DNA of 32,000 bases from Candidatus Thorarchaeota archaeon (lineage in GTDB: Archaea > Asgardarchaeota > Heimdallarchaeia > Hodarchaeales > Hodarchaeaceae), in NCBI GenBank assembly GCA_048882505.1, contig JBHLRO010000011.1, positions 1-32,000 on the forward strand. The letters are read 5' to 3'. The position numbers and the translations under genes are program-made. Under the pieces are notes generated by a model. The model made no database searches. It worked only from the letters and a program-made list of their open reading frames with translations, and had not been told where the DNA came from. Shown here in pieces: positions 7,284 to 7,706 of the stretch. Every line of letters begins with the position of its first letter. Position 1 is the stretch's first letter.

Positions 7284-7706
7284 ATGACCACTTCAGAAAT
7301 GGATGTAAACTGGAATTATCTTGATACAGGGCATTGTGCATTCAAAACGGGAGCAACATCCCCAAACTTTAAGAGATGTAATCATCTATTTACCGTTACG
7401 GGCAAACATGGGTTTATCGATTGTCCGCTAATTCAACCGAAGTTTTTCGCTTTTCAACAACAAGAGGGGTTGGTCTATCTGATCGAAAAAAATCAACAAG
7501 CTGCCCCTTTTGAGATGTGGGGGTTTTCTGAACTGCCCGATGACCGTGATAAAGCCCGAAAAATCGTAACTAAGAAAATTAAAAACCTTCCACCTCTCCT
7601 GCAAACAGCAATCTTGAGACGATTTGAACAATATTATGAAGTGGCGAAAATCATTCGAACTTCCGAGGAGCTTCGTACAGACGAAGAAGAGGAATCACTT
7701 GATTGA
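7284..7706 (+). CDS. Mak16/eL28-family protein (alternative GTG start at 7275)
   Basis: Pattern W..L...C.FK..NF.R....VTG.....CPL..KF.....G.VYL..K.....P..MW....L....A...I matches the N-terminal eL28-like domain of yeast Mak16 as recalled; short acidic tail. Confidence 0.82.
   Translation: MTTSEMDVNWNYLDTGHCAFKTGATSPNFKRCNHLFTVTGKHGFIDCPLIQPKFFAFQQQEGLVYLIEKNQQAAPFEMWGFSELPDDRDKARKIVTKKIKNLPPLLQTAILRRFEQYYEVAKIIRTSEELRTDEEEESLD

What the first reader, a model, noticed from the sequence alone, without database searches (positions are those of the whole stretch)
7284..7706. Mak16/eL28 homologue with a rearranged Cys-Cys-His-Cys metal site
Seen (numbered from the GTG at 7275): C21, C35, H45, C50 in GHCAF, FKRCNH, VTGKHGFIDCPL. 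Known: eukaryotic Mak16 is a pre-60S factor with four conserved cysteines in FCSH, NFCRN and VTGLC..SCPL (recalled), reported to bind an Fe-S cluster. Here the second Cys is shifted by two residues and the third is His. Inference: an archaeal Mak16-type ribosome assembly factor with a variant cofactor site (Zn or a His-ligated cluster). It has only the eL28-like domain plus a short acidic tail.
Basis: partly seen in the sequence, partly recalled or inferred. Interest (0 to 1): 0.72.

Follow-up and report, generated by a model that had tools for sequence, protein, structure and literature searches.

The report
Asgard Mak16/eL28 protein, Cys3-His site
This is a real 140-residue Hodarchaeales (Asgard archaeon) member of the already reported eL28/Mak16 family; it keeps the metal-binding motif of the eukaryotic ribosome-assembly factor Mak16 with one cysteine replaced by histidine, a swap that recurs in several Asgard lineages.

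Summary
The ORF 7284-7706 (+) is real and the four residues are as described. It belongs to the eL28/Mak16 family. Pfam PF01778 matches at E 1.3e-6. A Hodarchaeales profile hits only MAK16 chains in the PDB (E down to 2.8e-10) and no eL28 chain. A pLDDT-93 model matches Mak16 at Z 15.9 and eL28 at about Z 14.

The site is not rearranged. It reads CX13CX9HX4CP, inside the published Mak16 [4Fe-4S] consensus CX11-13CX9CX4CP, with only ligand 3 changed to His. Across about 125 homologues, ligands 1, 2 and 4 are Cys in nearly all and ligand 3 is only Cys or His. His arose at least three times: about half of the window's own GTDB family, a second Asgard clade, and one Njord-like genome.

The gene is single-copy. 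It sits in a conserved string: aIF2-gamma, Fcf1-like PIN, tRNA-Thr, this gene, C/D sRNA, ThiI-like gene. Asgard L28e/Mak16 homologues are already published (Eme 2023). I found no paper discussing their metal motif, and the same scan noted both variants in other genomes.

Open questions: Fe-S versus Zn, and assembly factor versus ribosomal protein. Verdict: a new variant of a known kind, of moderate interest.

The parts
7284..7706 (+). CDS of the 140-aa eL28/Mak16-family protein (stop codon included). The upstream in-frame GTG 7275 is an unlikely start.
   Evidence: ORF. All homologues start at the equivalent Met (A1). Pfam PF01778 E 1.3e-6. MAK16 chains are the only significant PDB hits. Model pLDDT 93; Z 15.9 to Mak16.
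7335..7427 (+). Metal-ligand motif C18-X13-C32-X9-H42-X4-C47-P48. Codons: TGT 7335-7337, TGT 7377-7379, CAT 7407-7409, TGT 7422-7424, CCG 7425-7427.
   Evidence: Read directly. Aligned to the four Mak16 Cys by HMMER. Conservation. Published motif CX11-13CX9CX4CP binds [4Fe-4S] (PMC12646323).
7407..7409 (+). His42 codon (CAT) at the position of the third Mak16 cluster ligand (yeast Cys38).
   Evidence: CAT/CAC in 15 genomic loci (14 genomes; L001 and L021 are both the window's own genome) against TGT/TGC in 21. Cys and His are the only residues seen at this column.
7671..7703 (+). Short acidic C-terminal tail (residues 130-140) after the long C-terminal helix.
   Evidence: Translation. Acidic tails occur in all Asgard homologues (A1). 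Helix 104-138 in the model.
7159..7231 (+). tRNA-Thr(UGU) 52 nt upstream, same strand (context).
   Evidence: ARAGORN. The same tRNA lies upstream of the homologue in 9 of the 18 same-family loci scanned and in the sister-family locus L025.
7730..7798 (+). Box C/D sRNA directly downstream (context). GTGATGA at 7739-7745, CTGA at 7789-7792.
   Evidence: Boxes read. blastn finds the element, or its two conserved ends, downstream of the homologue in every same-family locus that carries the gene. An earlier scan follow-up, e1-5416445, read it as an LSU H69/H71 guide.
5056..6929 (+). Upstream translation genes aIF2-gamma (5056-6507) and an Fcf1-like PIN_9 protein (6528-6929), which form the conserved neighbourhood.
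   Evidence: Pfam. Order aIF2g-PIN-[gene]-ThiI-like conserved in at least 16 of 21 relatives' loci and partly in the sister family.

Best explanation
The gene encodes the single-domain Asgard form of the eL28/Mak16 family. It is a roughly 125-residue knot-like RNA-binding domain followed by an acidic tail, and in sequence it resembles the N-terminal domain of eukaryotic Mak16 much more than eL28.

Shown:
- Family and fold membership.
- A Mak16-type ligand motif, CX13CX9HX4CP, in which only the third ligand is His.
- Strict conservation of ligands 1, 2 and 4, with a recurrent Cys/His alternation at ligand 3 in Asgard lineages.
- A single copy in the genome, and a match in all 21 searched genomes of its GTDB family.
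- A conserved translation and ribosome-biogenesis neighbourhood.

Inferred:
- C18, C32, H42 and C47 hold a metal centre that staples the N-terminal loops into the shape that docks on large-subunit rRNA, as the cluster does in Mak16.
- The protein works on the large subunit, during assembly or as a peripheral subunit protein. It does so without the eukaryotic Rpf1-binding module, which it lacks.
- It represents the state before the eukaryotic split into Mak16 (kept the site, gained C-terminal domains) and eL28 (lost the site).

My odds for the cofactor are: Cys3His-ligated [4Fe-4S] about 0.5, structural Zn about 0.35, no metal about 0.15. My odds for the role are: assembly or peripheral factor about 0.55, stoichiometric ribosomal protein about 0.45.
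For: - Family: Pfam PF01778 E 1.3e-6 over residues 10-118. phmmer against the PDB gives human, S. pombe and yeast MAK16, E 1.8e-4 to 5.6e-3, with the four ligands aligned.
- Closer to Mak16 than to eL28: a Hodarchaeales-only profile hits four MAK16 sequences (E 2.8e-10 to 6.2e-6) and no eL28 chain at E <= 10, although eL28 chains of many species are in the PDB.
- Fold: the model built on a 90-sequence alignment has pLDDT 93.3 and pTM 0.83. VIA-align gives Z 15.9 to C. thermophilum Mak16 and rmsd 2.1 A over 128 residues to yeast Mak16 in 8e5t, at 16-22% identity. eL28 scores Z about 14 at 12-15% identity.
- Motif: the published motif CX11-13CX9CX4CP binds an oxygen-labile [4Fe-4S] cluster. Yeast C38A (ligand 3) is only partly defective, whereas C28A and C43A are lethal (PMC12646323).
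- Conservation: C32, C47 and P48 are invariant and C18 nearly so. Position 42 is only C or H.
- Recurrence: His is found in 12 and Cys in 9 genomes of the same family, in the independent clade P0059/P0063/G397, and in 1 of 10 Njord-like genomes. The tree needs 3 changes, of which 2 are forced by supported branches.
- CAT <-> TGT needs two substitutions.
- Distribution: one copy in the genome. Found in 21/21 of family f1 and 36/400 Asgard genomes.
- Synteny. In G397 the gene lies next to eS8 and SRP19.
Against: - No biochemical data exist for any archaeal member, so the metal and its identity are inferred from eukaryotic Mak16 only.
- The Pfam score (29.4 bits) is under the curated cut-off (33.2).
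- Model coordinates are not returned, so I could not measure whether the four side chains converge.
- A Cys/His alternation is commoner in Zn sites than in [4Fe-4S] sites (general knowledge), which weakens the Fe-S reading.
- None of the 34 long rows in the alignment that I take to be eukaryotic Mak16 (by length and motif; the library has no names) has His at ligand 3, so the His form may not do what Mak16 does.
- The protein lacks the central helices that bind Rpf1 and the Mak16 C-terminal domain.
- No Brix-domain partner was detected, but that search had no working positive control.
- The tree has no eL28 sequences and is rooted by assumption, so 'pre-duplication form' is not demonstrated here.
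Confidence: 0.62

Rival explanations
1. It is simply the archaeal orthologue of ribosomal protein eL28: a stoichiometric large-subunit protein whose Cys3His (or Cys4) site is a structural zinc knuckle, like the zinc ribbons of many archaeal ribosomal proteins. The resemblance to Mak16 only reflects that eukaryotic eL28 evolved fast and lost the site.
For: - Size and single-domain architecture equal eL28 (about 135-145 aa).
- The fold matches eL28 at Z about 14, within 2 units of Mak16.
- Some sources name homologues '60S ribosomal protein L28'.
- It is single-copy and universal in its family, as a ribosomal protein gene would be.
- It sits next to eS8 in G397 and within a translation gene string here.
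- Cys/His exchange is typical of Zn sites (general knowledge).
- Early cryo-EM models placed Zn in Mak16 (PMC12646323).
Against: - No eL28 chain is hit by the Hodarchaeales profile at E <= 10, while MAK16 reaches 2.8e-10.
- The protein is acidic overall (pI 5.66; core residues 1-125 net +4; family median pI 5.3), unlike the presumed eukaryotic N-terminal domains (median net +11). However, eL32 of the same genome also carries an acidic tail.
- Only ligand 3 ever varies, whereas Zn sites usually tolerate His at several positions (inference).
Confidence: 0.3
2. In the His-type clade the metal site has decayed. The remaining Cys and His are kept for fold or RNA-contact reasons, and no metal is bound.
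For: - The swap needs two nucleotide changes through Tyr or Arg intermediates, so lineages passed through a three-ligand state.
- Yeast C15A shows no growth defect and C38A only a partial one (PMC12646323).
- eL28 shows that the fold can exist without the site (PMC12646323).
Against: - Across 43 His-type sequences, including 40 of the window's own clade that diverge down to about 57% identity, C18, C32, C47 and P48 stay invariant and position 42 is always His.
- His is the one non-Cys residue that is itself a good metal ligand, and it was chosen at least three times independently.
- A nested clade carries Cys again.
Confidence: 0.08

Closest known systems
Eukaryotic Mak16 (yeast Mak16 / human MAK16), N-terminal domain
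   Same: Same fold: Z 15.9, and rmsd 2.1 A over 128 residues to yeast Mak16. MAK16 chains are the only significant PDB sequence hits. Same ligand spacing, C-X(11-13)-C-X9-x-X4-CP, including the Pro after the last Cys. An acidic C-terminal region is present.
   Different: Ligand 3 is His instead of Cys. The protein has 140 aa against about 300. It has no central Rpf1-binding helices and no Mak16 C-terminal domain PF04874. The core is less basic. Cluster binding and pre-ribosome association are untested.
Eukaryotic ribosomal protein eL28
   Same: Same Pfam family PF01778 and same fold (Z about 14). Similar length and single-domain build.
   Different: eL28 lacks the four-ligand site (PMC12646323 Fig. 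3 legend; own knowledge). Identity is only 12-15%. No eL28 chain is reached by the Hodarchaeales profile. The window protein is acidic overall.
Published Asgard 'L28e/Mak16' eukaryotic signature protein (Eme et al. 2023; Panguiarchaeum paper 2025)
   Same: This gene is a member. Close homologues carry Hodarchaeales/Heimdallarchaeota names. My distribution, one order plus a few other Asgard families (36 of 400 genomes), matches the reported Hodarchaeales, Njordarchaeia and Wukongarchaeia.
   Different: In the text I could read, those papers report presence and phylogeny only. They do not discuss the conserved Mak16 metal motif, the Cys/His alternation at ligand 3, or the conserved gene string.
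Natural Cys3-His metal centres (for example the His-ligated [4Fe-4S] cluster of [NiFe] hydrogenases, the Cys3His [2Fe-2S] of mitoNEET, CCHC zinc knuckles) - from general knowledge
   Same: The same ligand set, three Cys plus one His.
   Different: No sequence or fold relationship. They only show that both Fe-S and Zn are chemically plausible for this ligand set.

Membership tests
eL28/Mak16 superfamily (Pfam PF01778 Ribosomal_L28e) | Significant match to the family profile | tested here: met
   E 1.3e-6 over profile positions 3-113 of 115, but 29.4 bits is under the curated cut-off of 33.2. A relative from G397 scores 64.7 bits. The family profile A1 reaches MAK16 at E 2.8e-10.
eL28/Mak16 superfamily (Pfam PF01778 Ribosomal_L28e) | The knot-like eL28/Mak16 fold | tested here: met
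   Model pLDDT 93.3. Z 15.9 to Mak16 and Z about 14 to eL28 of many species, covering residues 5-136. Foldseek's top hits are all Mak16, then eL28.
Mak16 proper (eukaryotic pre-60S factor) | Four invariant Cys in CX11-13CX9CX4CP | tested here: not met
   The spacing is met (X13, X9, X4, CP), but ligand 3 is His42. Sister species of the same family have all four Cys.
Mak16 proper (eukaryotic pre-60S factor) | Central two-helix Rpf1-binding domain and Mak16 C-terminal domain (PF04874) | tested here: not met
   The protein ends at residue 140. Pfam finds only PF01778. There is no PF04874 match elsewhere in the genome, though that search has no positive control.
Mak16 proper (eukaryotic pre-60S factor) | Binds an oxygen-labile [4Fe-4S] cluster | not testable with these tools
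   Needs anaerobic purification and spectroscopy. Only the ligand pattern is seen here.
Mak16 proper (eukaryotic pre-60S factor) | Partner Rpf1 (Brix domain) present | tested here: inconclusive
   PF04427 was not found in the window's own genome or in 23 further genomes of the order. The control archaeal genomes did not ring either, so the search is insensitive.
Ribosomal protein eL28 | Sequence similarity to eL28 of eukaryotic ribosomes | tested here: inconclusive
   No eL28 chain at E <= 10 with either the protein or the family profile. Fold similarity is present at 12-15% identity.
Ribosomal protein eL28 | Stoichiometric component of the mature large subunit | not testable with these tools
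   No Hodarchaeales ribosome structure or proteome was at hand, and no RNA run was listed.

The most novel reading that the evidence does not exclude
The redox- and oxygen-sensitive [4Fe-4S] centre recently shown in Mak16 predates eukaryotes. On this reading the common ancestor of eL28 and Mak16 was a small Asgard Fe-S protein acting on the large ribosomal subunit, and lineages such as this one repeatedly retuned the cluster by replacing the third Cys ligand with His. That would give a natural Cys3His [4Fe-4S] ribosome-assembly protein, and a minimal model for how ribosome production became coupled to iron, sulfur and oxygen status before eukaryogenesis.
Probability: 0.3. Interest if true: 0.7.

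Novelty: new variant of a known kind. Interest (0 to 1): 0.42.

Why it matters
The Mak16 [4Fe-4S] cluster was established only in late 2025, and that paper does not mention archaea. This window, together with about 125 relatives, shows three things:
- eL28, not Mak16, is the derived form with respect to the metal site.
- Nature has repeatedly tried a Cys-to-His replacement at exactly the ligand whose loss yeast tolerates best.

This gives a small, expressible pair of natural variants, His-type and Cys-type from sister species. With them one could test whether the ribosome-linked Fe-S site predates eukaryotes and what a His ligand does to its stability in oxygen.

It does not change the known picture of which Asgard lineages have the gene.

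Tried and rejected
1. Complex prediction of the window protein with the genome's own eL32, a reported neighbour of the Mak16 N-terminal domain. Result: no verdict (score 0.00). It is not evidence either way.
2. The look-up of sequencing runs listed no RNA holder, so nothing can be said on expression.
3. Brix/Rpf1 (PF04427) and the Mak16 C-terminal domain (PF04874) were not found in the genome. The controls were silent, so both searches are inconclusive.
4. NCBIfam gave no match.
5. The first structure model, from 27 close homologues, had pLDDT of about 50 over the metal-site region. It was replaced by the 90-sequence model.
6. Idea that His17 (in GHCAF) covaries with His42: rejected. H17 is common with Cys at ligand 3 as well (25 H/C against 30 H/H pairs).
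7. Idea that the His form tracks aerobic capacity: haem-copper oxidase (PF00115) is present in 7/12 His-type and 2/9 Cys-type genomes. Fisher p = 0.18, and the genomes are related and incomplete, so there is no usable association.
8. Two odd hits in the representative search (P0054, 3151 aa; P0068, 455 aa) are tandem-repeat proteins and not relatives.
9. I could not measure ligand distances because model coordinates are not returned.
10. I did not add eL28 sequences to the tree because no tool supplied them.

Full report
**Observation.** The window has a single ORF at 7275..7706 (+). Every close homologue starts at the Met encoded by ATG 7284 (alignment A1), so the product is 140 aa. In ATG numbering they are:
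- C18 (TGT 7335-7337)
- C32 (TGT 7377-7379)
- H42 (CAT 7407-7409)
- C47 (TGT 7422-7424), followed by P48

The motif therefore reads C-X13-C-X9-H-X4-C-P.

**Family and fold.**
- Pfam finds Ribosomal_L28e (PF01778) over residues 10-118 at E 1.3e-6. The score, 29.4 bits, is just under the curated 33.2. NCBIfam finds nothing.
- phmmer against all PDB chains returns only human, S. pombe and yeast MAK16 as credible hits (E 1.8e-4 to 5.6e-3). The printed alignments put C18, C32, H42 and C47 opposite the four Mak16 cysteines.
- A profile made only of Hodarchaeales sequences reaches four MAK16 sequences at E 2.8e-10 to 6.2e-6. It reaches no eL28 chain at E <= 10, although eL28 of many species is in the PDB.
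- A first AlphaFold model from 27 close relatives was poor in the N-terminal 50 residues. With 90 diverse relatives the model reached pLDDT 93.3 and pTM 0.83.
- VIA-align gives Z 15.9 to C. thermophilum Mak16 and rmsd 2.1 A over 128 residues to yeast Mak16 (8e5t). eL28 of mammals, plants and protists scores Z about 14 at lower identity. Foldseek ranks Mak16 first and eL28 next.

The protein is thus a true member of the eL28/Mak16 fold family and is closer in sequence to the Mak16 N-terminal domain.

**The metal site.** A 2025 paper shows that yeast and human Mak16 bind an oxygen-labile [4Fe-4S] cluster through the consensus CX11-13CX9CX4CP. In yeast, C28A and C43A are lethal, C38A (ligand 3) is intermediate, and C15A is silent (PMC12646323). 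The window's motif fits this consensus exactly, except that ligand 3 is His.

I tabulated the motif in three sets of sequences:
- 48 close homologues
- the hits of an exhaustive representative search
- 36 genomic loci from 400 Asgard genomes

Ligands 2 and 4 and the following Pro are invariant. Ligand 1 is nearly invariant. Ligand 3 is only ever Cys or His.

All 34 long proteins with the FCRN-type motif have Cys at ligand 3. I take these to be eukaryotic Mak16 from their length and motif, because the library has no names.

His appears in three separate places:
- In the window's own GTDB family it occurs in 12 genomes, against 9 with Cys.
- It occurs in a separate clade, P0059/P0063/G397.
- It occurs in one of ten Njord-like genomes, G285. 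Those proteins have an X8 instead of X9 spacer.

A maximum-likelihood tree needs three changes of state, two of them forced by well-supported branches. Within the window's family a Cys clade (SH-aLRT 98) appears nested among His sequences, although the backbone is poorly resolved. The codons are CAT/CAC against TGT/TGC, so each swap needs two substitutions.

A column that accepts only the two best metal-ligating side chains, beside three fixed cysteines, is strong indirect evidence that a metal centre is kept. It does not tell Fe-S from Zn.

**Context and distribution.**
- The gene is single-copy. A match is found in all 21 searched genomes of its family, and in 36 of 400 Asgard genomes overall. 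This agrees with the published restriction of L28e/Mak16 to Hodarchaeales, Njordarchaeia and Wukongarchaeia (PMC10307638, PMC12411855).
- In the window it lies in a co-directional string: aIF5B, eS6, aIF2-gamma, a PIN_9 (Fcf1-like) protein, tRNA-Thr(UGU), this gene, a box C/D sRNA, and a ThiI-like THUMP protein.
- The order aIF2-gamma, PIN, gene, ThiI-like is kept in nearly all loci of the family and partly in the sister family. The sRNA, or its conserved ends, follows the gene in every family locus that carries the gene. The tRNA is present in about half.
- In G397 the gene precedes eS8 and SRP19. In Njord-like genomes the neighbours are unrelated.

This ties the gene to the translation apparatus. 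It does not separate 'ribosomal protein' from 'assembly factor'.

**Role.** The protein lacks the central Rpf1-binding helices and the Mak16 C-terminal domain. I found no Brix protein in the order, but that search had no working control.

The protein is acidic overall: pI 5.66, with the core at net +4. The family median pI is 5.3. The presumed eukaryotic Mak16 N-terminal domains have a median net charge of +11. This leans slightly away from a buried core ribosomal protein. However, eL32 of the same genome also has a long acidic tail, so the tail itself is a lineage habit.

A complex prediction with eL32 gave no verdict, and no RNA data were listed. I therefore give the assembly or peripheral role only a slight edge, about 0.55.

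**Comparison and novelty.** The family assignment is already known. In the searchable library I found no discussion of three points:
- The Asgard proteins carry the Mak16 cluster motif.
- By sequence they are Mak16-like rather than eL28-like.
- Ligand 3 alternates between Cys and His.

Supplements of the phylogeny papers were not readable. The same scan has flagged both the His-type and the four-Cys type in other genomes, which agrees with what I tested here.

A test for a link between the His form and haem-copper oxidase gave no usable signal (7/12 against 2/9, p = 0.18).

**Verdict.** This is a new variant of a known kind, of moderate interest. It is mainly useful as a small natural Cys/His pair for asking whether the ribosome-linked Fe-S site is older than eukaryotes.

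Noticed in passing
L026:2-1696 (-) (G398), L027 (G399) and protein P0073: In one other Asgard family (f33) the eL28/Mak16 domain sits at about residues 345-480 of a 512-577-aa protein. It follows a roughly 340-residue N-terminal region with no Pfam match and precedes a very long acidic tail. This is a fused form not seen in Hodarchaeales.
   Followed up: partly
window 7730-7798 (+): A box C/D sRNA (GTGATGA 7739-7745, CTGA 7789-7792) lies directly downstream of the gene. It, or its conserved ends, lies downstream of the homologue in every locus of the family that carries the gene. An earlier scan report reads it as a guide for LSU helices 69/71.
   Followed up: partly
L041:1426-1944 (+) (own genome, contig C16): Ribosomal protein eL32 of this genome carries a long acidic C-terminal extension rich in Asp, Glu and Leu. 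Acidic tails on ribosome-linked proteins therefore seem to be a lineage trait rather than something special to the Mak16-like protein.
   Followed up: no
window 7892-9010 (+): The downstream ThiI-like protein matches only the THUMP and ThiI ferredoxin-like domains in Pfam and shows no PP-loop domain hit. It is syntenic with the Mak16-like gene in all family loci, at 37-49% identity in most (84% in the closest relative, G070).
   Followed up: no
window 5056-6507 (+): aIF2-gamma is called with a Lys/Ser/Thr-rich N-terminal extension of about 58 residues before the usual start (translation).
   Followed up: no
L028-L031, L035-L040 (Njord-like genomes): The Njord-type homologues use C-X12-C-X8-[C/H]-X4-CP, one residue shorter between ligands 2 and 3. 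They are about 165-215 aa because of long Glu/Lys-rich tails.
   Followed up: partly
own genome G000:C17:44215-45567 (+): The genome encodes a haem-copper oxidase subunit I (PF00115, E 1.5e-136). So do 10 of the 23 other genomes of the order, which is consistent with reports of oxygen metabolism in Hodarchaeales.
   Followed up: no
L024:439-1911 (-) (G397): In this distant Asgard genome the His-type homologue (64.7 bits to PF01778) is followed on the same strand by eS8 and SRP19. SRP19 also lies in the present window at 2113-2559 (-).
   Followed up: no
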